A DNA stretch of 64,000 nt. It comes from Sphingomicrobium sp. GTDB taxonomy: Bacteria; Pseudomonadota; Alphaproteobacteria; Sphingomonadales; Sphingomonadaceae. Shown here one piece after another: positions 11,458 through 26,631 of this stretch. The notes beneath the pieces were generated by a model. It saw nothing but the letters and a program-made list of their open reading frames with translations, did no database searches and was not told the DNA's origin. Position 1 is the stretch's first letter. Every line of letters starts with the position of its first letter. Where the stretch lies: assembly GCA_039915925.1 (NCBI GenBank), contig JBDSMG010000073.1:14902-78901 (forward strand), given 5' to 3'. The position numbers were made by a program, and so were the translations under genes.

Positions 11458-12126
11458 CTAAGGAAAAAATACGAGCCGTTGAGTAAGCCGAGGGTTTCTG
11501 AACCGCTCGTCGCTCTTGATCCAGTCTCCGCTGATTTCTCCGGAATGAGGCACGAAGCCGGGGTAGATGGCAAGCCGGTTGAAGGCGGCCTCAATGCGAG
11601 CGCGAAGTCTGAAACTAGAATCGTTGCTAGTCATATATCCTTCCGCGGGTCTCGCATGAAGCGGGCCGGGCACTTGCTCGAAGAACAGAGTTCCCCCGCG
11701 GTCCTCCCGGTTCAGGTAGATCAGTCCGAACACAGGCACCGGGTCCGTGTGCGGTATCCGTTGCTTCTGTGACAGGTCGTCAGGGTGCACATCGACGATG
11801 CCGAAGTCGGTATGAAGGTTGCGGAAGGCCGCGATCGATTGCCCGTTGTAGATGATCGATGGGACCCGTGGGAGGAACTGGTCGGTCACGAGAGCTAGAG
11901 CCCAGGCGATCAGATTCGTCAGTGAAGGATTTGGTGGCGGGATCGCGAGTTTGCCTGGGTAAGGGTAAGGCGGCCTCGTATAGGTTAGCTGGAGGGCCAT
12001 CTCACGAATTTCATCCGGCCGCTCGTAGACATTGTCCACGATGATTGCTGGCACGACGCCCCCAAGCATCTCGAACGAGAATCGTTGTTTCGTCGACAAT
12101 TCGAACAATCGGTCGTCTATCTGCAT
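11458..12126 (-). CDS. DUF6445-like protein, putative Fe(II)/2-oxoglutarate double-stranded beta-helix fold
   Basis: 222 aa; IIVDNVYERPDEIRE, YPGK, IPHTDP, LIYLN, GGTLFF, FNRLAIYPGFVPHSG, RLTQRLVF; H-x-D...H triad. Confidence 0.65.
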   Translation of the reverse strand: MQIDDRLFELSTKQRFSFEMLGGVVPAIIVDNVYERPDEIREMALQLTYTRPPYPYPGKLAIPPPNPSLTNLIAWALALVTDQFLPRVPSIIYNGQSIAAFRNLHTDFGIVDVHPDDLSQKQRIPHTDPVPVFGLIYLNREDRGGTLFFEQVPGPLHARPAEGYMTSNDSSFRLRARIEAAFNRLAIYPGFVPHSGEISGDWIKSDERFRNPRLTQRLVFFP

Positions 12127-12404: not shown

Positions 12405-12489
12405 TTCTCCAGCGATTCGCCGGGTTTCGGTTTTGGTTCGCCGCAAGGCGTGCCCGGTGCGTAATCCGGGAAGTTGGGGAGAAAATTTA

Positions 12490-15400
12490 ATGACTGCACG
12501 GTCCTTCACTGCGTCTCGCGCGCTGCGCGGTGGTGCATCCACGATGGTCTTGGGAGCGATGCTTTTCGCGCCTGCCGCTTACGCGCAGACCACGACGCCG
12601 GCCGAGACGGAGGCGACCAAGCCGCTCTCCGCGCAGACGGATCCGGCAGTTGCCGCAGCCCCGAAGGACGATCCGGGAGCGATTGTCGTCACGGGTCAGC
12701 GCCGCGCGCTGCGCAACGCTCAGCAGATCAAGCGGAACGCCGACACGGTCGTTGACTCGATCACGGCCACCGACATCGGCGCCTTCCCCGACAAGTCGAT
12801 CGCCGAAGCGCTGCAGCGCGTTCCGGGCATCACCGTCAATCGCTTCGCGGCGACCGGCGACACCGCCCACTTCTCGGCCGAGCCGTCGGGCGTCATTGTC
12901 CGCGGTCTTCCGCAGGTCCGTTCCGAATTCAACGGCCGCGACACGTTCTCGGCGAACTCCTCACGCGGCTTGAGCTGGAGCGACATCACCCCCGAACTCA
13001 TGGCGGGGGTCGACACGTACAAGAACCAGACTGCAGAACTGATCGAGGGCGGGATCGCCGGCTCGATCAATATGCGCACCCGGGTTCCGTTCGATGCCAC
13101 CGGACAATTGTTCCAGGTGGGCGCGAACATGAACTACAACGACCTCGCCAAGAAGTGGTCGCCTGATGCCAACGTCTTCTACAGCAACCGCTGGAGCACC
13201 GGCCTCGGCGAAATCGGCATCATGGCCAATGGCGCTTATTCGAAGGTCAATACCGCGTCGCAGGGCATCCAATATGGTCGCGCCGGGGTGTTCGACAATG
13301 TTTTCCCGGCATCGGGCATGACGACCGTCTATGCGCCTTCGGGCGTGTCGTTCCGCGACAACCTTTATGAGCGGACGAGGACCGGCATCGCCGCCGCCGT
13401 TCAGTGGAAGAGCCTCGACGACAGGCTGCTCTTCACGACCCAGTACAATCGCTCGGTTTACAAGAGCGGCTGGGACGAGCGCGTGGTGTCCGCGAACTTC
13501 TTCGGCCTGTTCGGACAGAATGCGACATACCGTTTCAACCCGACCAATGACCCGCTCAGCGGCGGCGTCCGGCAGAACCCGCGCCAAGCGCCCGGGTCTA
13601 GTCCGTTCACGTTCGACGACGACGGTTGGCTGAACGGCGGTACGTTTTCGCAATACAACGGCTGGTTCGGTCCTCCCGGCGAACAGGCCGGGTTTGGCGT
13701 ACTCAGCTCCGGCCAGCCGATTTTCCAGGCCTGTTACACGTGGGGTTGCCCGACCGGCGGTCAACCGGGCACCTATGGCGCGGGCGCAAACACCGCCAGC
13801 CGCTCCAACAGCAACCGCAACATGACCCAGGACATCTCAGCGAACCTGAAGTTCGAGGCGACCGATCGTCTGCGCTTCAACGTTGATGCTCAACGGGTGA
13901 ATTCGACGATAGACAATTATGACATCGAGGTCGACTTCAACTCCTTCGCGAACGTCCAGGCGGAGTTCAATGGCCGGCCGACAGTCGCGTTCCTGCCTCC
14001 GACGCACGTCAATCAATCGCCGGGCGGACTGGCTAACCCGAACAATTATTACATCAATGCGGTCATGGATCACCTCGAGGACAGCGCGGGGCGCGAATAC
14101 GCGCTCCGGGGTGACGGCGAGTACGATCTGAACACGAACTGGTTCGATTCGATCAAGTTCGGTGCCCGCATGGCGGACCGGAAGCAGAAGGTTCAGTGGA
14201 GCACCTACAATTGGCACAACGTCGCCAATACCTGGACAGACTACAGCCCATGTCCGCACCCGTATTTCAACCTCGACAGTACTCCAAAGACGTGCGTGAG
14301 GCCCGGTCAGCCAACGGTGAACTTCCAAGGCTATCCGAGCGGATTTTACGAGACTGCGCCGTTCGGGACGGCGTACCATGGCGGCAATCTCGGCGACTTC
14401 GTATTCGTGCCGCGCGACTTCCTGAGGGAGGGTCGGGCAAGCGAATTCAGTCAGACCCAAACGGGCGTCGGAAGCTTCGAGCCGATCTGTAATCGCAATG
14501 GTCAGAGGACGCAGGGCGGCGATGTCATCGCCGTTGAGCTACCCGACAGCTGTTTCACGGCCGATGAGATTTCCGATGTTTCGGAAAAGACCAAAGCGGT
14601 CTATGCAATGCTTCGCTTCGGCGGGCCTAACGCGTCGATCGGCGGGATCGGGGTTAGTGGCAACCTTGGCGTTCGCTACGTCGGCACCACCAACGAGAGC
14701 CGCGGTTTCACCCGGTGGCCCGGCCAAGTGACGAATAGCAACTGTCCGACCGTTGCGCTCGTTCCAGGTGGTCTGACAGGAACGAGGACGACGCCGCCGA
14801 CAGGGGCACCCGGTGCGTTCGCTCCTTGGCCGGTGGAATGCTACCTGAGCGGGGCGGACCTGGCCTTCGATACTGGCGGCGGTGCCGAGTCGACCGTTAA
14901 GGTGAAGCATCATCATCTGCTTCCGAGCTTCAACATTCGCTTCGATCTCAGCCCCAAATGGCTGTTGCGCTTCGCGGCATCGAAAGCCATGTCGCGGCCA
15001 GATATCGGCCAGTTGAAGAACTTCGTGGCAATTAGCCAAGGGCGGCCGTCCAACGTTTCGACCGATCCTCGATGGATCCTAAACGCGGCGGGCCAGCCGA
15101 TCGGTGTGAACCCGACTTACACAGCCACGGCGTTTAATCCTTATCTGAAGCCGATCACCGCCTTGCAGTTCGACCTTTCGCTGGAGAATTATTTCGCCAA
15201 TGTCGGGTCGTTCAGCTTCGCTTTGTTCCACAAGCGCTTCAAGAACTACATCCAGACGGGTTCGTTCGGTGTTGACTACACGAACGGCGGCACCACGCGT
15301 ACAGTGACGGTACAGGGCCCCGCGAACGGCAAGGGTGCGAAGATCTCGGGCTTCGAAGTGGCCTACACGCGCTTCTTCGACTTCCTGCCGGATCCGCTGA

Positions 15401-15894
15401 ATGGTCTGGGCATCCAAACCAACGCCACTTACGTGAAGAATACGGGCATTCCGAACTCTGGTCTTTCGAGCGTGGGCTCTCCGCTGGCAAACGGCGGCAG
15501 CTTCACGAACGGAACGGTTCTGAACCCGGGTTCGCTCGAGGGCCTGTCGAAGTGGTCGTACAACGTCATCGGAATGTACGAGAAGAACGGCCTCTACCTG
15601 CGTCTGGCCTACAACTGGGCGTCGAAGAAGCTGGTCACTGCGGTGGATTGCTGCGTCGCTCTGCCGGTTTGGCAGAAGCCGGCGGGCTACCTCGACGGCT
15701 CCGTCCGTTACGACGTCAACCAGTCAGTTCAGCTGAGCTTCCAGGTTAGCAACCTGCTCAACACGCAGACTAAGCTGATGCAGCAGGTGGCGGATGAGGA
15801 CAGCCCCGAGGGCAAGCGCATCCTGGTCCCGAACGCGTTCTTCCAGCAGGACCGCCGTTACACGATCGGTGCTCGCCTGAAACTCGGCAAGTAA
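12490..15894 (+). CDS. TonB-dependent receptor (glycan importer)
   Basis: 1134 aa from ATG 12490 (RBS GGGGAG); signal peptide, IVVTGQR, plug motif DIGAFPDKSIAEALQRVPGI, YKNQTAELIEGGIAGSIN, C-terminal NLLN...DRRYTIGARL. Confidence 0.95.
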   Translation: MTARSFTASRALRGGASTMVLGAMLFAPAAYAQTTTPAETEATKPLSAQTDPAVAAAPKDDPGAIVVTGQRRALRNAQQIKRNADTVVDSITATDIGAFPDKSIAEALQRVPGITVNRFAATGDTAHFSAEPSGVIVRGLPQVRSEFNGRDTFSANSSRGLSWSDITPELMAGVDTYKNQTAELIEGGIAGSINMRTRVPFDATGQLFQVGANMNYNDLAKKWSPDANVFYSNRWSTGLGEIGIMANGAYSKVNTASQGIQYGRAGVFDNVFPASGMTTVYAPSGVSFRDNLYERTRTGIAAAVQWKSLDDRLLFTTQYNRSVYKSGWDERVVSANFFGLFGQNATYRFNPTNDPLSGGVRQNPRQAPGSSPFTFDDDGWLNGGTFSQYNGWFGPPGEQAGFGVLSSGQPIFQACYTWGCPTGGQPGTYGAGANTASRSNSNRNMTQDISANLKFEATDRLRFNVDAQRVNSTIDNYDIEVDFNSFANVQAEFNGRPTVAFLPPTHVNQSPGGLANPNNYYINAVMDHLEDSAGREYALRGDGEYDLNTNWFDSIKFGARMADRKQKVQWSTYNWHNVANTWTDYSPCPHPYFNLDSTPKTCVRPGQPTVNFQGYPSGFYETAPFGTAYHGGNLGDFVFVPRDFLREGRASEFSQTQTGVGSFEPICNRNGQRTQGGDVIAVELPDSCFTADEISDVSEKTKAVYAMLRFGGPNASIGGIGVSGNLGVRYVGTTNESRGFTRWPGQVTNSNCPTVALVPGGLTGTRTTPPTGAPGAFAPWPVECYLSGADLAFDTGGGAESTVKVKHHHLLPSFNIRFDLSPKWLLRFAASKAMSRPDIGQLKNFVAISQGRPSNVSTDPRWILNAAGQPIGVNPTYTATAFNPYLKPITALQFDLSLENYFANVGSFSFALFHKRFKNYIQTGSFGVDYTNGGTTRTVTVQGPANGKGAKISGFEVAYTRFFDFLPDPLNGLGIQTNATYVKNTGIPNSGLSSVGSPLANGGSFTNGTVLNPGSLEGLSKWSYNVIGMYEKNGLYLRLAYNWASKKLVTAVDCCVALPVWQKPAGYLDGSVRYDVNQSVQLSFQVSNLLNTQTKLMQQVADEDSPEGKRILVPNAFFQQDRRYTIGARLKLGK

Positions 15895-15904
15895 GCTCTA
15901 ATCG

Positions 15905-15943
15905 GGGCCGGGCGCTGCACCGTGCAGCGCCCGGCCCTTTTTT
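15905..15943 (+). terminator. Rho-independent terminator after the TonB-dependent receptor
   Basis: GGGCCGGGCGCTGCAC-c-GTGCAGCGCCCGGCCC perfect inverted repeat followed by TTTTTT. Confidence 0.88.
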
Positions 15944-16025
15944 GTGCCCGCCGCACGTGCGGTCGGCATGACTTGGGCTTGCATCGCCCGCTCAAAGAGG
16001 CATGACGCCGCGGGGAGTCCGGCCG

Positions 16026-17561
16026 GTGAATGATCCAGTCGAAGTAGTGATCCTGGGCGGTGGAACGGCCGGCTGGATGGCCGCGGCCGCGCTTTCGGCC
16101 TTGCTGCCGCGCAGCCGGTGCAACGTCCGTCTGGTGGAATCTGAAGAGATCGGAATCGTCGGCGTGGGTGAAGCGACCCTGCCGCACATGAAGAATTTCA
16201 ACGACGCGGTCGGGATCGACGAAGCGGAGATGATCCGCGCCACCAAGGCGACCTTCAAGCTTGGTATCGAGTTCCGCGACTGGGGTTTTCTGGGATCGTC
16301 CTATGTGCATCCGTTCGGAATTCACGGAGCTTCAGAAACCAGCCTCGGCTTCCACCACAAATGGCTGCGCGCGGCGCAGACTGGGCATGAGTCCAATCTC
16401 GAGGATTTCTCATTTGCGATCGTCGCCAGCCGCCAAAACCGCTTCGACTTCCCGGCCGCGACCGGCAAACCCGGGATCGCCTCTACCTACAGCTACGCCT
16501 ATCATTTCGACGCGAGCCTCTACGCTGCATTCCTGCGAAAGTTCGTCGAGGCGAGGGGCGTCACACGGATCGAGGGCATGGTGCGCGCGGTCAACAAGAC
16601 CCCCGGTGGGGATATAGCCTCGCTAACACTCGAGTCCGGCGAAGTGGTGAGCGGCAATTTTTTCATCGACTGCTCCGGTTTCCGCTCGATCATCCTCGGC
16701 GAAGCGCTTGGGGCGGAGTGGGAGGATTGGAGCAATTGGCTTCCGTGCGATCGCGCCTGGGCCGTGCCGTCCGCGAACGTTGGTGAGTTGACGCCTTATA
16801 CGCGCTCAACCGCGCTTGACGCTGGCTGGCAATGGCGCATCCCGCTGCAGCATCGCACCGGCAACGGTCATGTTTTCTCGACCGGTTTCACGACGGAGGA
16901 GCAAGCGCGCGAGACCCTGCTTGCTAATCTCGATGGCCAGGCGCTTGCCGAGCCGCGCTTGCTGCGCTTCCAGGCAGGCCGACGCCTCGGTTCATGGCAC
17001 CGCAACTGCCTCGCGCTCGGGCTCGCGAGCGGTTTCCTGGAGCCGCTTGAATCGACGAGCATCTATCTCGTGCAGATCGCGCTGATGCACCTGCTGCCGC
17101 TGTTCCCGGGACGGCAGACCGAGCCCGCGCTTCGCGACGAGTTCAACCGCCGGATGGAGGTCGAATATGAACGCATCCGCGACTTCCTGATCCTCCACTA
17201 CCATCTGACCAACCGCGACGATTCCGAGTTGTGGCGCTATTGCCGGGCGATGGACGTTCCGGAGAGTTTGACCTTCAAGATCGAGCGCTTTCGGCGCCGC
17301 GGCTACATCGAGCGGTACCGCGAAGGGTTGTTCACGCCGCCGAGCTGGCTCAGCGTCCTAGTCGGGCAAGGACTGAAGCCCGAGCATTATCATCCGACCA
17401 TGGACAATGTCCCGGCCGAGGAGGTCGCGCGCGAACTCGAGGAACTTCGCACCGACATCCTCGACCGCGTTGAAGAAATGCCGAAGCACGAAGCAGTGAT
17501 GGCCCGCTACACGCGCGACGGATTCGCCTCCGACCCATTTGCATTCGGGCTCAATGCATGA
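16026..17561 (+). CDS. Tryptophan-halogenase-family flavoprotein 1
   Basis: GGGTAGW, VGVGEAT, ATFKLGI (catalytic Lys position), WQWRIP, FLEPLESTS; start placed at GTG 16026 after GGGGAG. Confidence 0.9.
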   Translation: MNDPVEVVILGGGTAGWMAAAALSALLPRSRCNVRLVESEEIGIVGVGEATLPHMKNFNDAVGIDEAEMIRATKATFKLGIEFRDWGFLGSSYVHPFGIHGASETSLGFHHKWLRAAQTGHESNLEDFSFAIVASRQNRFDFPAATGKPGIASTYSYAYHFDASLYAAFLRKFVEARGVTRIEGMVRAVNKTPGGDIASLTLESGEVVSGNFFIDCSGFRSIILGEALGAEWEDWSNWLPCDRAWAVPSANVGELTPYTRSTALDAGWQWRIPLQHRTGNGHVFSTGFTTEEQARETLLANLDGQALAEPRLLRFQAGRRLGSWHRNCLALGLASGFLEPLESTSIYLVQIALMHLLPLFPGRQTEPALRDEFNRRMEVEYERIRDFLILHYHLTNRDDSELWRYCRAMDVPESLTFKIERFRRRGYIERYREGLFTPPSWLSVLVGQGLKPEHYHPTMDNVPAEEVARELEELRTDILDRVEEMPKHEAVMARYTRDGFASDPFAFGLNA

Positions 17562-19066
17562 TGCAGCCGGTTCGCAAGGTCGTGGTCGTCGGGCGCGACG
17601 GTCCGGCGTGGATGGCGGCATTGTCGCTGCAGCGCGCACTCGGCCGCGCGGGCCTTGAGGTCTCGGTCGTCGAACTGCCGTCGCTGTTGCGCGGCGCGGA
17701 TGTGTATGCGGCGCTGCCGTCCTTGCGGTCGCTGCACGACTTGCTCGGTCTTGATGAAGCGGCGGTGCTCACCGCTGCGCGAGGCGTTCCGATGGTTGCG
17801 CAACGCTATTCGGAATGGACCCCGGGCGCGGCCTTTCTGCAGGGCTATGACAGCGTCGAGGCACCCGGCGCTTTCCTCAGCTTTGTGCAGCTCTGGGCGA
17901 AGGCGCGGATCAAAGGCCTGCCGGTTCCATTCGAGGAGTTTTCCTACGGCGCAATGGCTGCGCGGCTCGGCCGCGTCCCTTCCGAAAGCGATGACCCGGA
18001 GGCGCTCGGCGCCACCTATGGCTATCATCTCGACGCGAACGCTTATTCCTTGCTGTTACGCACGCTCTCCGAACGACGCGGCATAAAGGTGCGTTCGACG
18101 CCGATCGCCGATGTGGAGATCAGCGAAGATCGAATTTTGGCGATCGAGCTTGCCGACGGTCAGCGCATCGAGGCCGATCTGTTCGTCGATGCCTCGGGTG
18201 CGGAGGCGGTGCTGATCTCACGCCTGCCGCAGAGTGCGTTCGAGGCGTGGGATGCCTTTCTTCCGTGCGACCGCTTGCTCGCGGCATCGGCGCCCAGACT
18301 TAGCCCATTGCCCGCCTTCAGTCAGGTCACCGCCTTCGACGCGGGCTGGGCCGGCATGTTTCCGCTGCAGGAACGCACTGCGGTGGTTGCGGCGTACCGA
18401 TCGACCGAAATCGGCGACGACGAATTGCTTCACAAGCTGAAAGCGGATGTTGGGATGCCGGTCGAGGGCGACGCCGTGGTGAGCACGATCGCTCCAGGTG
18501 TGCGCAAATCGCCGTGGATCGGCAATTGCGTTGCCGTCGCAGATGCGGCGGCGTTCCTGGAGCCGCTAGACTCGCTTCAGTTGCACATGGCGCATGTGTG
18601 CGTGACTCAGTTGATCAATTTCTTCCCGGTGGATTCCGACACGAGGATTGAAGCGACAGATTACAACGCCGCAGTGCGGCTGCACGCGTCGAACCTGCGC
18701 GACTTCCAGCAGTCACATTACAAGCTCAACCGAAGGACCGGGCAACGCCTGTGGGACGAAGCACGCTCGGCCGAGGTCTCCGACGGACTTGCCCAGAAGC
18801 TTCGTGTGTTCCAAGCCCGCAGCGAGGCGGTGCTCTATGACGAAGAAACGTTCGAAGCAGGCAGCTGGGCATCGATGTTTATCGGTCACGGGCTCACGCC
18901 CGAAGGATATGATCCGCGAGCCGACCTGATCGAGGAGCAGGATCACATCGAGCGGATTCAGGCCCGCCTACGCGAAATCGCAGGAAGCATTCCGGCCCTG
19001 CCCACGATAGAAGCCTTCCTGACCGCAACCCAGATTCCTGTGAAAGCACCGGCACCAGCATCATGA
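17558..19066 (+). CDS. Tryptophan-halogenase-family protein 2, catalytic motifs degenerate
   Basis: 502 aa, collinear with neighbours (YHLDA, FVDASG, FLEPL, YDEETF..SW..IGHG) but GRDGPAW, VPMVAQ, WAGMFP and LDSLQL replace the signature motifs; ATGA overlaps at both ends. Confidence 0.82.
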   Translation: MMQPVRKVVVVGRDGPAWMAALSLQRALGRAGLEVSVVELPSLLRGADVYAALPSLRSLHDLLGLDEAAVLTAARGVPMVAQRYSEWTPGAAFLQGYDSVEAPGAFLSFVQLWAKARIKGLPVPFEEFSYGAMAARLGRVPSESDDPEALGATYGYHLDANAYSLLLRTLSERRGIKVRSTPIADVEISEDRILAIELADGQRIEADLFVDASGAEAVLISRLPQSAFEAWDAFLPCDRLLAASAPRLSPLPAFSQVTAFDAGWAGMFPLQERTAVVAAYRSTEIGDDELLHKLKADVGMPVEGDAVVSTIAPGVRKSPWIGNCVAVADAAAFLEPLDSLQLHMAHVCVTQLINFFPVDSDTRIEATDYNAAVRLHASNLRDFQQSHYKLNRRTGQRLWDEARSAEVSDGLAQKLRVFQARSEAVLYDEETFEAGSWASMFIGHGLTPEGYDPRADLIEEQDHIERIQARLREIAGSIPALPTIEAFLTATQIPVKAPAPAS

Positions 19067-20589
19067 CCGCTAACCCCGTCCGCAATATCGTCATCGTCGG
19101 AGGCGGAACCGCCGGCTGGATGGCGGCTGCCGCAATGGCGAAGATTCTGGGCACCGAGACACGCAATATCACCTTGGTGGAGTCCGAAGAGATCGGCACG
19201 GTCGGCGTTGGCGAAGCGACGATTCCCGCGATCATGCTGTTCAACCAGATGCTGGAGATCGACGAGGACGAGTTCGTCCGCGCAACCCATGCGACGTTCA
19301 AGCTCGGCATCGATTTCGTCAACTGGCGCAAGCTCAACCATCGCTATTTCCACCAGTTCGGGCTGATCGGTGCGGAGCTGAAGAACGGTGTGTCCTTCAC
19401 CCATTATTGGACGCGCTGGCGGGACCTGGGTGGAAGCCCCGATCCGATGGAGTTCAGCGCGGAGGCCACCGCCGCAAAAGAGGGCCGGTTCGGCAAAGCG
19501 AGCCCAAAGGCCGGCCGAAACGTTCCGAACGTCAATTATGCCTACCAATTCGATGCATCGACCTACGCCGCATATCTTCGTCGCTATTCCGAGGCCCGTG
19601 GCATCATTCGCAAGGAAGGCCGGATCGTTGATGTCGAGGTGAATGGTGAAAGCGGGTTCATCGAAGCCTTGAAGCTTAACGACGGTAGCCGGATCGAAGG
19701 CGATCTGTTCGTTGATTGTTCGGGTTTCCGCGGACTGCTCATCGAGCAGCAGCTGGAGTCTGGCTTTCAGGACTGGAGCCATTGGCTGCCGAACGACCGA
19801 GCGGTGGCCGTGCCATGCGCGAAGATCGCGGATCCCACGCCCTTCACCGGTTCGACAGCGCAGGAGTCCGGATGGCAATGGCGCATTCCGCTGCAGCACC
19901 GCACGGGCAATGGATATGTTTTCTCAACCGAGTTCATCTCGGAGGACGAGGCGACAGCGAAGCTGCTCGAACGCCTCGACGGCGAACCGATTGCCGATCC
20001 GAAAGTGGTTCGTTTCAAGGCCGGAAAGCGCAAGCAGGCCTGGGTTAAAAACTGCATCGCCCTTGGGCTGTCGAGCGGATTCCTGGAGCCGCTGGAGTCG
20101 ACGAGCATCCATCTGATCCAGGTCGGCATCATGCGGATGTTCGCATTCTTTCCCGAGATGGATTTCGATCCGCTGCTGGCCAAGCGCTACAACGATGAGA
20201 TGGACCTGCTCTACGACGGCATCCGCGACTTTATCGTGGCGCACTTCAAGGTTACCGAGCGCGACGACACGCCGTACTGGGAGTATTGCCGCACGATGTC
20301 GGTTCCCGACAGTTTGCAGGCGAAGCTCGACCTGTTTGCAATGCGCGGCGAAGTCGTCCCCGATCCGCGCATGCTCTTTACCGAACACAGCTGGTTCGCG
20401 GTGCTCTACGGACAGGGCCTCGAGCCGCGCGGCTATCATCCGCTCGCGGACGCGCTCCCGGCCGATCAGCTCAACGCACACCTGACGCAAATCCGCTCAT
20501 TGATCCGGCAGCGGGTCAGCGAACTTCCGTCGCACGGCGATTATCTCCGGCACGTCGCGGCGGGTGCGCGCGCGACGGCTTTCGCCTAG
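19063..20589 (+). CDS. Tryptophan-halogenase-family flavoprotein 3
   Basis: GGGTAGW, VGVGEAT, ATFKLGI, WQWRIP, FLEPLESTS. Confidence 0.9.
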   Translation: MTANPVRNIVIVGGGTAGWMAAAAMAKILGTETRNITLVESEEIGTVGVGEATIPAIMLFNQMLEIDEDEFVRATHATFKLGIDFVNWRKLNHRYFHQFGLIGAELKNGVSFTHYWTRWRDLGGSPDPMEFSAEATAAKEGRFGKASPKAGRNVPNVNYAYQFDASTYAAYLRRYSEARGIIRKEGRIVDVEVNGESGFIEALKLNDGSRIEGDLFVDCSGFRGLLIEQQLESGFQDWSHWLPNDRAVAVPCAKIADPTPFTGSTAQESGWQWRIPLQHRTGNGYVFSTEFISEDEATAKLLERLDGEPIADPKVVRFKAGKRKQAWVKNCIALGLSSGFLEPLESTSIHLIQVGIMRMFAFFPEMDFDPLLAKRYNDEMDLLYDGIRDFIVAHFKVTERDDTPYWEYCRTMSVPDSLQAKLDLFAMRGEVVPDPRMLFTEHSWFAVLYGQGLEPRGYHPLADALPADQLNAHLTQIRSLIRQRVSELPSHGDYLRHVAAGARATAFA

Positions 20590-20597
20590 GGGGCCGC

Positions 20598-21479
20598 GTG
20601 AGGAACGATCGCTACGCCGGCGTCGAGCTTGGCGGGACCAAATGCGTGTTAACTCTTGCCGCAAGCAAGGATGACATCCTTGCGCAGGAGGTCGTCGCGA
20701 CCACTACGCCGGAAGAGACCATCGGCGCGATCGAACGCGTGTTGCTGAAGTGGCAGACGGAGCGACCGTTCCGCTCGCTCGGTATTGCCAGCTTCGGGCC
20801 GGTGGATCTCAACCGCGCGTCCCCGACCTTCGGCGATATTACAACCACTTCGAAGCCCGGTTGGAGCGGGACGGACGTCGGTCGGCGGCTTCAGACGCGG
20901 CTGGGCGTTCCGATGAGTTTCGATACGGATGTCAACGGAGCAGCGTTCGCGGAAATGCGCTGGGGTGCCGGGCGTGGGATGCAGGACTTCGCTTACATCA
21001 CGGTTGGCACCGGCGTCGGTGTCGGGTTGATCGCCAACGGGCAGTCGATGGCCGGTTTCCTCCATTGCGAGATGGGCCACAGCCGCGTCGCCCGGCTGCC
21101 GGGCGACGAATGGGCTGGTGCGTGCCCGTTCCATGGCGATTGCGTCGAGGGGCTTGCATCCGGAAGCGCATTGAAGGCGCGCTTCAACGGCCAGTCGCTT
21201 GACGCCCTGTCTGAAGATCACCCCGTTTGGGACGCGGTCGCGTGGACGCTTGCGCAATTGTGCCACAACATCGCTTGCACCGCGGCTCCGCTGGCGATCG
21301 CCATCGGTGGCGGCGTCCTCGAGCGGCAGCCGCATCTGCTGGCCCGCATCCAGCCGCTGCTGGAGAAGAGTCTCAACGGGTATTTCGACCTTCCGGACAA
21401 TTACGTGCGAGTGCCCGGGCTCGGCGCGAAGGCTGGGCCGCTCGGTTCGATCGCCCTCGCGATGGATGCTGCGGCCTAG
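20598..21479 (+). CDS. ROK-family hexose kinase (fructokinase/mannokinase-like)
   Basis: From GTG 20598: GVELGGTK, SFGPVDL, DTDVNGAA, YITVGTGVGVG, EMGH, CPFHGDCVEGLASG Zn motif. Confidence 0.88.
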   Translation: MRNDRYAGVELGGTKCVLTLAASKDDILAQEVVATTTPEETIGAIERVLLKWQTERPFRSLGIASFGPVDLNRASPTFGDITTTSKPGWSGTDVGRRLQTRLGVPMSFDTDVNGAAFAEMRWGAGRGMQDFAYITVGTGVGVGLIANGQSMAGFLHCEMGHSRVARLPGDEWAGACPFHGDCVEGLASGSALKARFNGQSLDALSEDHPVWDAVAWTLAQLCHNIACTAAPLAIAIGGGVLERQPHLLARIQPLLEKSLNGYFDLPDNYVRVPGLGAKAGPLGSIALAMDAAA

Positions 21480-23842: not shown

Positions 23843-25132
23843 ATGCAGCAAGAGCGACAATCGGCCGGAACCACAAGCGCTTACGCGCTCGTCACATGCT
23901 TGTTCTTCGCCTGGGGGTTCATCACGTCGTTGATCGATCCGTTGGTCGCGGCGGTGAAGGGTATTTTCAGCCTTAGCGATCTTCAGGCGCAGTTGAGCGC
24001 GTCCGCTTTCTTCATTGCATACGGCGTCATGAGCTTCCCGGCGGCCGTTCTCCTTTCCCGCCGCAAGGCGGTTCCGACCGTCATTATCGCACTTGGAATG
24101 ATGGTGGCCGGCTGCATGCTGATGCTTTGGGCGGCGAACATCGCCAACTACAGCATTGTTCTTGCCGGCCTGTTCGTACTCGCCAGCGGAATCACCATCC
24201 TGCAGGTTGCGGCGAACCCACTCGCCGCTGCATTAGGCTCCCCTGAAAAAAGCCATTTCCGCCTCACGTTCAGTCAGGCATTCAACAGTTTCGGCACCTT
24301 CATCGGCCCCTATCTCGGGGCGGTCCTCTTCCTGAAGGGCGTCGAGGTCAAACATGGCACCACCATTACGGGTGAGGTCCGCAACGCTTCCCTGGCAGGC
24401 ATCGACCGTGCCTTCTTCTGGATTGCCGGCCTCATCATCCTGATCGGCGTGCTGATCTGGGCTGGTCGCAAGCTGATCACCGCTGCGGCGGCCCATGATG
24501 AGAATGCCAAGCCGCTTGGGATGGGCGCCGCCTTTGCTGACGCTTTCTCTTCGCCATGGGCCTTGTTCGGTGGCTTGGCCATTTTCCTTTACGTAGGTGC
24601 TGAAGTTGCGATCGGCACGCAGATGGCCCTGTTCCTCAACAGCGATGCAGTGTGGGGCATTCCGCTGCAGGATGCCGGCAAGTGGGTCAGCATGTATTGG
24701 GGCGGCGCGATGGTCGGCCGGCTTGTCGGGTCTGCCTTACTCACCAAGGTCGACGCGCCGAAGCTTCTGGCCGCGTTCACCGGGCTTGCGTGCGCGATGT
24801 GTCTATATGTGTTCGCGGTCGGCGGGATCGGCGGCGGCTACGTCGCGCTAGCGATCGGCCTGTTCAATTCGATCATGTTCCCGGTGATCTTCACGATCAC
24901 GCTGGAACGATCGACCGCTTCGGAGGAGGCGACATCGGGCTTCCTCTGCTTCTCGATTGTGGGCGGCGCGGCGCTGCCTCCGATCGTCGGGCTCGTGTCT
25001 GGTCACAGCAGCTATGTGACCGCGTTCATCGTTCCCGCGCTTTGCTATGCAGTCCTTTGCGCGTTCGCGATCGCATCGCGGGGAGCCAAGCTGCATCACC
25101 GAGAGGACGGAACCGCGGCGGTTTTCCACTAA
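23843..25132 (+). CDS. MFS sugar transporter, GluP/FucP family
   Basis: FFAWGFITSLIDPL, LQVAANPL, SQAFNSFGTFIGP, YVGAEV, SIMFPVIF; 12-TM pattern. Confidence 0.9.
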   Translation: MQQERQSAGTTSAYALVTCLFFAWGFITSLIDPLVAAVKGIFSLSDLQAQLSASAFFIAYGVMSFPAAVLLSRRKAVPTVIIALGMMVAGCMLMLWAANIANYSIVLAGLFVLASGITILQVAANPLAAALGSPEKSHFRLTFSQAFNSFGTFIGPYLGAVLFLKGVEVKHGTTITGEVRNASLAGIDRAFFWIAGLIILIGVLIWAGRKLITAAAAHDENAKPLGMGAAFADAFSSPWALFGGLAIFLYVGAEVAIGTQMALFLNSDAVWGIPLQDAGKWVSMYWGGAMVGRLVGSALLTKVDAPKLLAAFTGLACAMCLYVFAVGGIGGGYVALAIGLFNSIMFPVIFTITLERSTASEEATSGFLCFSIVGGAALPPIVGLVSGHSSYVTAFIVPALCYAVLCAFAIASRGAKLHHREDGTAAVFH

Positions 25133-26631
25133 GCGGAGGCGATCAGCCTTTCGAGATAGGCGGCGTGGGTCGGGAGCGACCCCGCCGCTTTTTCGTAAGC
25201 GGTGTGGAGCTCGGCCAAGGCTCCGAGCGCCTGCGCGTCGGAGTAATTCGACAGCATCGGCTCGGCCGCTTCCGGGAAAATCTCCTGCCCGATCATCACC
25301 GCGGCCCAGCTCGCAACGTCGAATAGCTCGTCATTGTAGCGGAAGATGCGGCCATGTTCGCGGAACAGGTCGAACTTGTGCTGCAGGCTGTCGGGGATCG
25401 CCATCTCGCGGACGTGATCCCAGAAGGGGCCGGAGCGGCGCGTCGCCTTGTAGTGAAGGATGATGAAGTCGCGGATCGGGTCGTAGCTTTCGGCCAGCAG
25501 GCGATTGTATTCGGCGCGCTCGACCGGGTTGATACCGCTGCTCGGGAACAGGCTGATTAGTTTCTGGATGCCGCGCTGGATCAGGTGGATGCTGGTCGAT
25601 TCCAGCGGTTCGAGGAAGCCGGCAGCCAGGCCGATCGCAACGACATTGCCTTCCCATGAGCGCACGCGCCGGCCGGCCGTGAAGCGCAACTTGTTGGTGG
25701 CCGCGAGCTGCGCGCCGTCGAGATTGTCGAGCAGTAGTTGCTCCGCCTCATCCTCGCCCATGTGCGCGCTGCAATAGACATGGCCGTTGCCGGTGCGGTG
25801 CTGGAGGGGAATGCGCCATTGCCATCCGGCTGGTCGGGCAGTCGAACGGGTGAAAGGAGTCAGAGGCTCCACGCGCTCGCAGGGGACCGCAATAGCGCGG
25901 TCGCAGGGGAGCCAGTGGCTCCAATCTTCGAACGGGACCTCCATCGTCTGGCCGAGCAGAAGTGAGCGGAAGCCCGAGCAGTCGACGAACAAATCGCCCT
26001 TGACGACGCGATCGCCTTCGAGGCGGACGGCGGTTACGTCGCCGCTCTCCCCGTCGCGATCGACGCTGACGATCTTGCCTTCAATACGCTCCGCTCCGCG
26101 CGCTTCGGCGTAGCGACGGAGGAACTGGCCGTAGAGGCTGGCGTCAAAATGATAGGCGTAGGCCAGGCCCGAGAGTGGGGAGGAGGGGTCCTGGTTCGGG
26201 CGTGAGAAGCGGAACTGGCCGGCGGTCACGGCCGAGATCGAGTAATTCGAAAGTGGGCCGACCCCGCTGGAGCGGCGATGTTTCAGCCAGAGTTGATATA
26301 GCGGGACACCGTCGACGGCACGGCCGATGTCGCCGAACTGGTGGAAGTATCGCTGCCCGTCCTCGACCCAGTTCACGAAGTCGATTCCCAGCTTGTAGCT
26401 CGCCTTGGTCGCGCGCACGAATTCGGCTTCGGGAATGCCGAGCTGAATGTTGAATTCGTTGACCGGAGGGATCGTGCCTTCTCCGACACCGACCGTGCCG
26501 ATCGCTTCGGATTCGACCACGACGATGCGGCGTCCGGCGCCAACGAAGCGGGCGAGCGCCGCGGCCGCCATCCAGCCGGCGGTGCCGCCTCCGACGATAA
26601 CGATGCGGCGGATCGGTCCTGCTTCGCTCAT
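25129..26631 (-). CDS. Tryptophan-halogenase-family flavoprotein 4
   Basis: GGGTAGW, VGVGEGT, ASYKLGI, WQWRIP, FLEPLESTS. Confidence 0.9.
   Translation of the reverse strand: MSEAGPIRRIVIVGGGTAGWMAAAALARFVGAGRRIVVVESEAIGTVGVGEGTIPPVNEFNIQLGIPEAEFVRATKASYKLGIDFVNWVEDGQRYFHQFGDIGRAVDGVPLYQLWLKHRRSSGVGPLSNYSISAVTAGQFRFSRPNQDPSSPLSGLAYAYHFDASLYGQFLRRYAEARGAERIEGKIVSVDRDGESGDVTAVRLEGDRVVKGDLFVDCSGFRSLLLGQTMEVPFEDWSHWLPCDRAIAVPCERVEPLTPFTRSTARPAGWQWRIPLQHRTGNGHVYCSAHMGEDEAEQLLLDNLDGAQLAATNKLRFTAGRRVRSWEGNVVAIGLAAGFLEPLESTSIHLIQRGIQKLISLFPSSGINPVERAEYNRLLAESYDPIRDFIILHYKATRRSGPFWDHVREMAIPDSLQHKFDLFREHGRIFRYNDELFDVASWAAVMIGQEIFPEAAEPMLSNYSDAQALGALAELHTAYEKAAGSLPTHAAYLERLIASA

What the first reader, a model, noticed from the sequence alone, without database searches (positions are those of the whole stretch)
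17558..19066. Intact pseudo-halogenase translationally coupled between two motif-complete halogenase-family genes
Seen: every functional motif is changed. GGGTAG becomes GRDGPA, GVGEAT becomes ADVYAA, the catalytic Lys position (ATFKLG) becomes Met (GVPMVA), WQWRIP becomes WAGMFP, and ESTSI becomes DSLQL. Yet the ORF is full length (502 aa) with no stops and ATGA overlaps on both sides. Established: PrnA-type enzymes need GxGxxG for FAD, Lys79 for halogenation and WxWxIP, and form dimers. Inference: a retained non-catalytic subunit (heteromer partner, ligand sensor or scaffold) in a three-gene complex, not a decaying pseudogene.
Basis: partly seen in the sequence, partly recalled or inferred. 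Interest (0 to 1): 0.72.

Follow-up and report, generated by a model that had tools for sequence, protein, structure and literature searches.

The report
Conserved dead halogenase partner subunit
The middle of three tandem halogenase-like genes beside an outer-membrane sugar receptor has lost every catalytic motif yet is an old, conserved, selected protein family that always sits next to, and in some bacteria is fused to, an intact halogenase, so it most likely acts as a non-catalytic partner of those poorly understood enzymes.

Summary
ORF 17558-19066 (502 aa, "B") is a full-length Trp_halogenase-fold protein. All four halogenase signatures are replaced, and it shares ATGA overlaps with two motif-complete paralogues, A (16002-17561) and C (19063-20589).

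It is not decaying. B belongs to a monophyletic subfamily found in Sphingomonadales, Caulobacterales and several Gammaproteobacteria. The replacement motifs are themselves conserved (G-R/A-D-A-x-x-W, never Lys). dN/dS is 0.05-0.30, about the same as A and C. The AlphaFold model is a complete halogenase fold (pLDDT 94, TM 0.9 to BrvH).

In 80 related loci the order TonB receptor - A - B - (C) is nearly invariant, while the glycoside hydrolases around it vary. Two groups of natural ~1000-aa proteins fuse a degenerate N-half to a canonical C-half. Two of the group-1 proteins were located, both at the B-C position behind an A gene.

Best reading (about 0.6): B is a catalytically dead paralogue kept as a physical partner of the adjacent intact halogenases.

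Direct interaction is not shown; an AlphaFold run on a B-C read-through chain was inconclusive (pTM 0.59). I found no published description.

The parts
11458..12126 (-). DUF6445 (2OG-Fe(II)-oxygenase-like) gene, divergent from the receptor. It is a recurrent companion of this kind of module.
   Evidence: Pfam PF20043, 77 bits. A DUF6445 cluster occurs in 15 of 56 related loci. More than 100 protein clusters are natural halogenase+DUF6445 fusions.
12433..15894 (+). TonB-dependent receptor of the Xanthomonas/Caulobacter type. The likely true start is the ATG near 12490 (MTARSF...).
   Evidence: Plug and beta-barrel domains. TIGR01782 at 583 bits. It is the only neighbour conserved with the module, in 53 of 56 loci.
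15904..15938 (+). Strong terminator-like hairpin with a T-run between the receptor and halogenase A.
   Evidence: 16-bp stem with 13 GC pairs, followed by TTTTTTG.
16002..17561 (+). Halogenase A: a motif-complete flavin-dependent halogenase of the BrvH/Xcc4156 group.
   Evidence: PF04820 at 603 bits. GGGTAGW, GVGEAT, FKLG, WQWRIP and EPLESTSI are all present. 484 bits to BrvH 6frl.
17558..19066 (+). B: the degenerate halogenase-fold protein (the finding).
19063..20589 (+). Halogenase C: a motif-complete paralogue belonging to a near-monophyletic C lineage.
   Evidence: PF04820 at 621 bits. 501 bits to Xcc4156 6y1w. C clade.
20598..21479 (+). ROK-family sugar kinase, 9 nt after C. It is probably in the same transcription unit.
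   Evidence: PF00480 at 175 bits. An in-frame GTG at 20598 gives the N-terminus ...GVELGGTKC.
25129..26631 (-). A fourth, motif-complete halogenase paralogue in the same locus, from a different lineage and not paired with a degenerate copy.
   Evidence: PF04820 at 624 bits. It falls in a separate 'O' clade.

Best explanation
B is a pseudoenzyme: a paralogue of flavin-dependent halogenases that keeps the whole two-subdomain fold but has lost the FAD P-loop, the flavin loop, the catalytic Lys, the WxWxIP block and the Glu/halide site. It is kept by selection as a physical partner of the motif-complete paralogues encoded immediately beside it. The probable form is the dimer seen for these enzymes, as A:B and/or B:C. 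Its role would be to stabilise, regulate or give substrate specificity to the active subunit. Overlapping stop/start codons would keep stoichiometry and favour co-translational assembly. The module A-B-(C) belongs functionally to the upstream TonB-dependent receptor and not to any one glycan. SHOWN: motif loss, fold retention (as a model), monophyly, purifying selection, invariant adjacency, and natural fusions of a degenerate N-half to a canonical C-half. INFERRED: loss of FAD binding and catalysis, the heteromer itself, and what the complex acts on.
For: (1) The replacement motifs are conserved across 120 homologues: G12 100%, D14 98%, A15 97%, W18 98%. The Lys position is M, I or V and never K. 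The other blocks read GW[VIT]G[LM][FYH]P and EPLD[AG][VL]QLH.

(2) B is one clade (77 rows, one change, support 100 in FastTree and 97 in IQ-TREE). C is nearly one clade.

(3) NG86 dN/dS for B is 0.05-0.30 in 12 genome pairs, equal to or slightly above A and C in the same pairs.

(4) AlphaFold2 gives pLDDT 93.9 and pTM 0.92. Foldseek gives TM 0.90-0.92 to BrvH and Xcc4156.

(5) Among the 80 best of at least 502 related loci, from Sphingomonadales, Caulobacterales, Hyphomonadales, Cellvibrionales, Alteromonadales and Steroidobacterales, the order is T-A-B-C in 41 and T-A-B in 17. The matched part of B begins between 25 nt before and 14 nt after the stop of A in all 66 junctions measured.

(6) Only the receptor is co-conserved (53/56). 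The glycoside hydrolases differ between loci.

(7) Rosetta-stone evidence: natural proteins of 985-1056 aa (P0129/P0152/P0130/P0153 and P0154-P0156/P0286) fuse a degenerate N-half to a canonical, C-like C-half. In L089 and L090 the P0129/P0130 fusions sit at the B-C position, directly after an A gene with an ATGA overlap in L090; the receptor gene is seen upstream in L090, while the L089 contig begins at A. In L089 versus L090, dN/dS is 0.16 for the N-half, 0.90 for the 25-aa linker and 0.02 for the C-half.

(8) Close relatives of A and C, BrvH and Xcc4156, crystallise as the dimer typical of tryptophan halogenases. BrvH also elutes as a dimer (PMC5945002 and PMC7336383, read).
Against: No direct test of interaction succeeded. 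AlphaFold2 on a B-C read-through chain with only nine paired rows gave pTM 0.59 and pLDDT 78, so it found no confident arrangement.

The N-halves of the natural fusions are very divergent. They score 237-246 bits on the B profile against 175-182 on the A and C profiles, and they sit on long branches. Their placement with B could therefore be helped by long-branch attraction.

Several former active-site positions carry new, strongly conserved residues (R13, D14, D48, H60, Q82). This could mean a new ligand site and not a plugged pocket.

B occurs with A only, with C only, or with both. The partner is therefore not unique.

The mirror-tree correlations (AB|C 0.70, BC|A 0.49, AC|B 0.08) may only reflect that B carries the most phylogenetic signal.

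Confidence: 0.6

Rival explanations
1. B is a neofunctionalised enzyme or ligand-binding protein. It uses the remodelled former flavin pocket for another cofactor or substrate and works in the same pathway as A and C, but without needing contact with them.
For: The former active-site positions are not free to drift. R13/A13, D14, L40, D48, H60 and Q82 are conserved replacements (type-II sites). The Glu that normally binds the adenosine ribose (E39) is kept in 98%. The DxSG and NCVAxG blocks are retained. Adjacency and co-selection would also be expected for consecutive enzymes of one pathway.
Against: 40 positions that are conserved in A and C are variable in B. They include the Lys, the GEAT loop and the halide-site Thr/Ser. 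The N-halves of the natural fusions have lost even the R-D signature (VVSNNAS, ILSNKSR, GDTVIG) and evolve several times faster than their fused partner. This fits a scaffold better than a catalytic site. An Asp at the second Gly of the P-loop should repel a dinucleotide pyrophosphate (established knowledge of Rossmann folds; inference here).
Confidence: 0.22
2. B is a sensor or regulator that couples substrate arrival through the TonB-dependent receptor to the activity or expression of the locus. It acts independently of a stable complex with A or C.
For: The only invariant neighbour besides the paralogues is the receptor. The module is found in loci for different glycans.
Against: B has no DNA-binding, signalling or membrane domain and is the halogenase fold from end to end. 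The covalent fusions to a canonical halogenase argue for a stable association.
Confidence: 0.1
3. B is a decaying pseudogene or a recent inactive duplicate that only happens to be still open.
For: All catalytic motifs are gone. B evolves faster than A and C: against L009 it is 59% identical, versus 77% for A and 83% for C.
Against: It is intact and about 500 aa long in essentially all 80 loci, across two proteobacterial classes. It is monophyletic, has dN/dS of 0.05-0.30, and gives a confident complete fold model.
Confidence: 0.02

Closest known systems
BrvH (PDB 6frl), Xcc4156 (6y1w) and the Pseudoalteromonas sp. L11 enzyme (9luq): 'group C' flavin-dependent halogenases with unknown native substrates
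   Same: They share the fold (TM 0.90-0.92) and are the best sequence matches in the PDB (213, 199 and 204 bits). A and C are close relatives of them (464-501 bits). brvH also has a second halogenase gene directly upstream (PMC5945002).
   Different: BrvH carries GxGxxG, Lys83 and WxWxIP and brominates indole in vitro (PMC5945002). B has none of these motifs and is only 25-29% identical.
The 'one to three tryptophan halogenases + TonB receptor + SapC + JmjC/2OG oxygenase' neighbourhood of Iyer, Abhiman, de Souza Burroughs & Aravind 2010 (PMC2938197)
   Same: It is the same kind of gene neighbourhood: a receptor followed by up to three halogenase homologues, often with a 2OG-oxygenase-like gene. 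Here that gene is DUF6445 at 11458-12126.
   Different: That paper states that the halogenase homologues have an intact Rossmann fold and the conserved Lys, and it predicts a halogenated siderophore-like product. It does not mention the degenerate paralogue. Here the context is glycan utilisation, with no peptide-synthesis genes.
Pseudoenzyme-enzyme paralogue heteromers in general (a dead paralogue kept as activator or scaffold of its active sibling)
   Same: Catalytic residues are lost while fold, selection and tight genetic linkage to the active paralogue are kept. Fusion proteins occur in some lineages.
   Different: I found no such pair described for flavin-dependent halogenases. A full-text search for 'flavin-dependent halogenase' plus 'pseudoenzyme' returned nothing. 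The comparison rests on general knowledge and was not tested here.

Membership tests
Flavin-dependent (tryptophan-type) halogenase, PF04820 | Full-length match to the family profile | tested here: met
   313 bits against a cut-off of 21; residues 7-458 cover profile positions 1-456 of 458.
Flavin-dependent (tryptophan-type) halogenase, PF04820 | Box plus pyramid fold of solved halogenases | tested here: met
   AlphaFold2 pLDDT 93.9. Foldseek TM 0.90-0.92 to 6frl and 6y1w. This is a model, not a solved structure.
Flavin-dependent (tryptophan-type) halogenase, PF04820 | GxGxxG FAD-binding motif | tested here: not met
   The motif is GRDGPA in the window. The family consensus is G-(R/A)-D-A-P-A, with Asp at the second Gly position in 98%.
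Flavin-dependent (tryptophan-type) halogenase, PF04820 | Catalytic Lys (PrnA K79, BrvH K83) | tested here: not met
   Met79 in the window. Across 120 homologues the position is M, I, V, C or A and never K.
Flavin-dependent (tryptophan-type) halogenase, PF04820 | WxWxIP motif | tested here: not met
   WAGMFP in the window. The family has GW[VIT]G[LM][FYH]P, and the second Trp is Gly in 88%.
Flavin-dependent (tryptophan-type) halogenase, PF04820 | Catalytic Glu and halide site (E-S-T-G/S) | tested here: not met
   D-S-L-Q in the window. Glu is replaced by Asp in 99% of the family, and the next positions are variable.
Flavin-dependent (tryptophan-type) halogenase, PF04820 | Binds FAD and halogenates an aromatic substrate | not testable with these tools
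   This needs purified protein.
Non-catalytic paralogue partner (pseudoenzyme) | Catalytic residues lost but the gene is under purifying selection | tested here: met
   dN/dS 0.05-0.30 in 12 pairs. All four motifs are absent in the top 42 representatives at 50% identity.
Non-catalytic paralogue partner (pseudoenzyme) | Constant genetic linkage to an active paralogue | tested here: met
   A lies directly upstream in 70 of 80 loci and C directly downstream in 54 of 80, with tight or overlapping junctions.
Non-catalytic paralogue partner (pseudoenzyme) | Physical association with the active paralogue | tested here: inconclusive
   Natural fusions of a degenerate N-half to a canonical C-half support it. 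AlphaFold2 on a B-C read-through chain gave pTM 0.59. There is no experiment.
Decaying pseudogene | Frameshifts or stops in orthologues, and dN/dS near 1 | tested here: not met
   Orthologues are intact and dN/dS is well below 1.

The most novel reading that the evidence does not exclude
The 'orphan' group-C halogenases next to TonB-dependent receptors are obligate heteromers in vivo. The dead subunit B would supply substrate recognition or allosteric activation, and perhaps control of flavin loading, to A and/or C. That would explain why BrvH and Xcc4156 are sluggish, lack a known substrate and are hard to load with FAD when studied alone. The A-B-C machine would act on something tied to receptor-mediated uptake and not to natural-product synthesis.
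Probability: 0.25. Interest if true: 0.8.

Novelty: new variant of a known kind. Interest (0 to 1): 0.6.

Why it matters
Halogenase-like genes beside TonB-dependent receptors are common in glycan-utilisation loci of Alpha- and Gammaproteobacteria, yet their role is unknown. The few members studied (BrvH, the Xcc enzymes) show weak activity on surrogate substrates.

A conserved, selected, catalytically dead paralogue that is always paired with an intact one, and sometimes fused to one, gives a concrete handle. Co-expressing the pair or trio may be what is needed to see native activity, stability or substrate.

If confirmed, it would be a pseudoenzyme subunit in the flavin-dependent halogenase family, for which my searches found no published description. 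It also warns that motif-based mining, which filters on GxGxxG, Lys and WxWxIP, discards the partner.

Tried and rejected
(1) AlphaFold on a covalent A-B or B-C chain with a deep block-diagonal alignment. MAFFT placed all single-domain rows on the same half of the fusion rows in three attempts, so only nine paired rows could be used. The result was inconclusive: pTM 0.59.

(2) Mirror-tree partial correlations suggest that B co-varies with both A and C. I give this little weight, because B simply has the widest range of distances.

(3) Literature. Eight full-text searches found no description of a degenerate halogenase paralogue. They found only Iyer et al. 2010 on the neighbourhood and the BrvH/Xcc4156 papers.

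(5) I asked whether one particular glycan defines the module. This was rejected: the window's GH31, GH74-like, GH67, GH10 and GH9 genes are not conserved with it (0-5 of 56 loci). Other loci carry GH97, alpha-1,3-glucanase or GH3 genes instead.

(6) NCBIfam has no specific model; only far sub-threshold hits were returned.

(7) I looked for A-type orthologues in genomes without B. The best matches in 60 other genomes of the family are at most 56% identical, against 77% in a B-carrying relative. This is suggestive, but the sampling is too thin to say that A depends on B.
Full report
**Observation.** The + strand carries three consecutive ORFs in three different frames: 16002-17561 (A, 519 aa), 17558-19066 (B, 502 aa) and 19063-20589 (C, 508 aa). 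Both junctions are ATGA overlaps. All three match Pfam Trp_halogenase PF04820 from end to end. A and C score 603 and 621 bits, and B scores 313 bits. In the alignment A and C carry GGGTAGW, GVGEAT, ATFKLG, WQWRIP and EPLESTSI. B carries GRDGPAW, ADVYAA, GVPMVA, WAGMFP and EPLDSLQL. Against BrvH (6frl), Met79 of B stands opposite the catalytic Lys83.

**Context.** Upstream lies a TonB-dependent receptor of the Xanthomonas/Caulobacter subfamily (12433-15894; TIGR01782, 583 bits). A strong terminator-like hairpin follows it at 15904-15938. A DUF6445 gene is transcribed divergently (11458-12126). Downstream of C comes a ROK sugar kinase. The wider region is a hemicellulose utilisation locus. It holds GH31, a BNR/sortilin-type (GH74-like) protein, GH35/42, GH27, GH5, an SSF symporter, an esterase, an MFS transporter, GH67, GH10, GH9 and a fourth motif-complete halogenase paralogue at 25129-26631 on the minus strand. 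The genome (2.79 Mb, 75 contigs, probably Sphingomicrobium) has six full-length PF04820 genes, and only B is degenerate.

**B is a conserved subfamily, not a wreck.** A search of 5.8 billion proteins returned more than 360 homologues. The 120 best listed are about 500 aa long and 48-67% identical. In their alignment, tallied by column, the changed motifs are themselves conserved:
- G12 100%, position 13 R 52% / A 40%, D14 98%, A15 97%, W18 98%.
- E39 98%, D48 98%, Y50 94%, P54 100%.
- The Lys position is M, I, V, C or A and never K.
- The WxWxIP block reads GW[VIT]G[LM][FYH]P, and the Glu/halide block reads EPLD[AG][VL]QLH.

A profile of this family separates B-type proteins (at least 408 bits) cleanly from canonical paralogues (at most 349 bits). 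In a library of 1.84 billion representatives at 50% identity, the 42 best hits are all of the fully degenerate type. Behind them comes a continuum of partly degenerate relatives.

**Comparative genomics.** A scan of one genome per prokaryotic species found at least 502 loci encoding relatives. The best 80 come from Sphingomonadales, Caulobacterales (Caulobacter, Brevundimonas, Phenylobacterium, Asticcacaulis), Hyphomonas, Cellvibrionales, Alteromonadales and Steroidobacterales.
- The gene order receptor - canonical A - degenerate B - canonical C is found in 41 loci, and receptor - A - B in 17. The few exceptions are B-C without A in Phenylobacterium and receptor - B - C in L042.
- The matched part of B begins between 25 nt before and 14 nt after the stop of A in all 66 junctions measured.
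- In trees of the halogenase-like ORFs, B is one clade (support 100 in FastTree with 215 rows, 97 in IQ-TREE with 93 rows). C is nearly one clade and A forms several. The three positions are therefore old orthologous lineages.
- B evolves faster. Against its closest relative in the scan (L009) it is 59% identical, versus 77% for A and 83% for C.
- Nei-Gojobori dN/dS for B is 0.05-0.30 in 12 genome pairs, close to A and C in the same pairs.
- The module is rare and patchy. It occurs in 2 of 401 sampled Alphaproteobacteria and 4 of 301 sampled Sphingomonadales. None of the 15 other genomes of the same genus listed in that sample has it.
- Only the receptor is conserved with it (53 of 56 loci). 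The surrounding hydrolases differ: GH97, alpha-1,3-glucanase and GH3 elsewhere, xyloglucan/xylan enzymes here.

**Structure.** AlphaFold2 with the family alignment gives pLDDT 93.9 and pTM 0.92. Foldseek finds BrvH, Xcc4156 and 9luq at TM 0.90-0.92 over the whole length. No subdomain has been lost.

A site-by-site comparison shows two patterns. Forty positions conserved in A and C are free in B, among them the Lys, the GEAT loop and the halide-site Thr/Ser. Ten positions are conserved in both groups but with different residues, including G to R13, G to D14, S to L40, V to D48, N to H60, I to Q82 and the second Trp of WxWxIP to Gly.

An Asp at the second Gly of a dinucleotide-binding P-loop should exclude the pyrophosphate. 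The R13/D14/D48 set may fill the empty pocket. Both points are inference.

**Evidence for a physical partnership.** I searched with a read-through A-B chain and then with a hit from that search. This uncovered natural proteins of about 1000 aa with two halogenase domains.
- One group comprises P0129, P0152 and P0130 (1049-1053 aa, 2 to 21 member sequences each) plus P0153 (1056 aa). A second group comprises P0154-P0156 and P0286 (984-989 aa).
- Both groups have an N-terminal half without GxGxxG, Lys or WxWxIP, and a fully canonical C-terminal half.
- The N-halves of the first group score higher on the B profile than on the A or C profiles (237-246 against 175-182 bits) and fall with the B clade. 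The C-halves fall in the C clade.
- On the two contigs carrying P0130 (L089) and P0129 (L090), an A gene of 525-526 aa is followed directly by the fusion. L090 has the end of the receptor gene upstream of A and an ATGA overlap between A and the fusion; L089 begins at A and continues into a GH3 gene. The contigs for the other fusions were not fetched.
- Between L089 and L090 the degenerate half has dN/dS 0.16, the 25-aa linker 0.90, the canonical half 0.02 and A 0.09.
- These fusions therefore occupy the B-C position. They show that a dead halogenase domain works in one polypeptide with a live one. The long branches of the N-halves are a caveat.

BrvH elutes as a dimer. BrvH and Xcc4156 both crystallise as the dimer common to tryptophan halogenases (PMC5945002, PMC7336383), so a hetero-dimer on the same face is a natural model.

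**What failed or stayed open.**
- AlphaFold2 on a B-C read-through chain (L014) with nine paired rows gave pTM 0.59 and pLDDT 78, which is no confident packing.
- Deeper block-diagonal alignments could not be built with the aligner on hand.
- Mirror-tree correlations point to B as the hub but are confounded by B having the widest range of distances.

**Comparison with what is known.** Iyer et al. 2010 (PMC2938197) described neighbourhoods with one to three tryptophan halogenases, a TonB receptor, SapC and JmjC/2OG oxygenases. They stated that the halogenases have an intact Rossmann fold and Lys, and they proposed a halogenated siderophore-like product. They did not note the degenerate member. 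The BrvH and Xcc4156 papers treat single enzymes whose native substrates are unknown. Eight full-text searches found no account of a dead halogenase paralogue.

I reached mine from my own searches, and the natural fusions add new support.

**Verdict.** The reading 'retained non-catalytic subunit, not a pseudogene' is supported by conservation, selection, synteny and fusions. The complex itself, and what it does for the receptor, remain to be shown.

Noticed in passing
window 11458-12126 (-); proteins P0136, P0148, P0158-P0264: More than 100 protein clusters of about 745 aa are natural fusions of a canonical halogenase with DUF6445; those that carry a source name are Roseateles/Pelomonas. A few others fuse a halogenase to Cupin_8/JmjC (P0170, P0174). 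This links the divergent DUF6445 gene of this window functionally to the halogenases.
   Followed up: partly
window 15904-15938 (+): A very strong terminator-like hairpin (16-bp stem, 13 GC pairs, T-run) lies between the receptor stop and halogenase A. It suggests that the receptor is expressed well above A-B-C, or that A-B-C is transcribed by read-through or from its own promoter.
   Followed up: no
L042 11016-12587 (-): This is a different kind of degenerate halogenase paralogue. GxGxxG is kept (CGGGVVG), the catalytic Lys is Arg (VTHRIG), WxWxIP reads WRMAIP, and EPLES reads DPLEAT. It follows two canonical copies. P0127 (1019 aa) has a similar N-half fused to a canonical C-half.
   Followed up: partly
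proteins P0303-P0414: Among the 150 best representatives there is a continuum of partly degenerate halogenase-fold proteins: some keep only GxGxxG, some only the Lys, and so on. Loss of catalytic motifs seems to have happened repeatedly in this receptor-associated group.
   Followed up: no
protein P0124 (1052 aa, 21 members): This is a natural fusion of two fully canonical halogenase domains. Paralogue pairs of this group may therefore work together even when both are intact.
   Followed up: no
G000 versus same-genus genomes: None of the 15 other genomes of the same genus listed in the order-level sample carries B. Its closest relatives are in metagenome bins of the genus. The module looks like accessory, laterally moving DNA.
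   Followed up: partly
L076 7861-9393 (+): This member of the B clade reads VVGGGAAAW at the P-loop position, so the three glycines are kept. It may be an intermediate or a reversion. It sits on a long branch.
   Followed up: no
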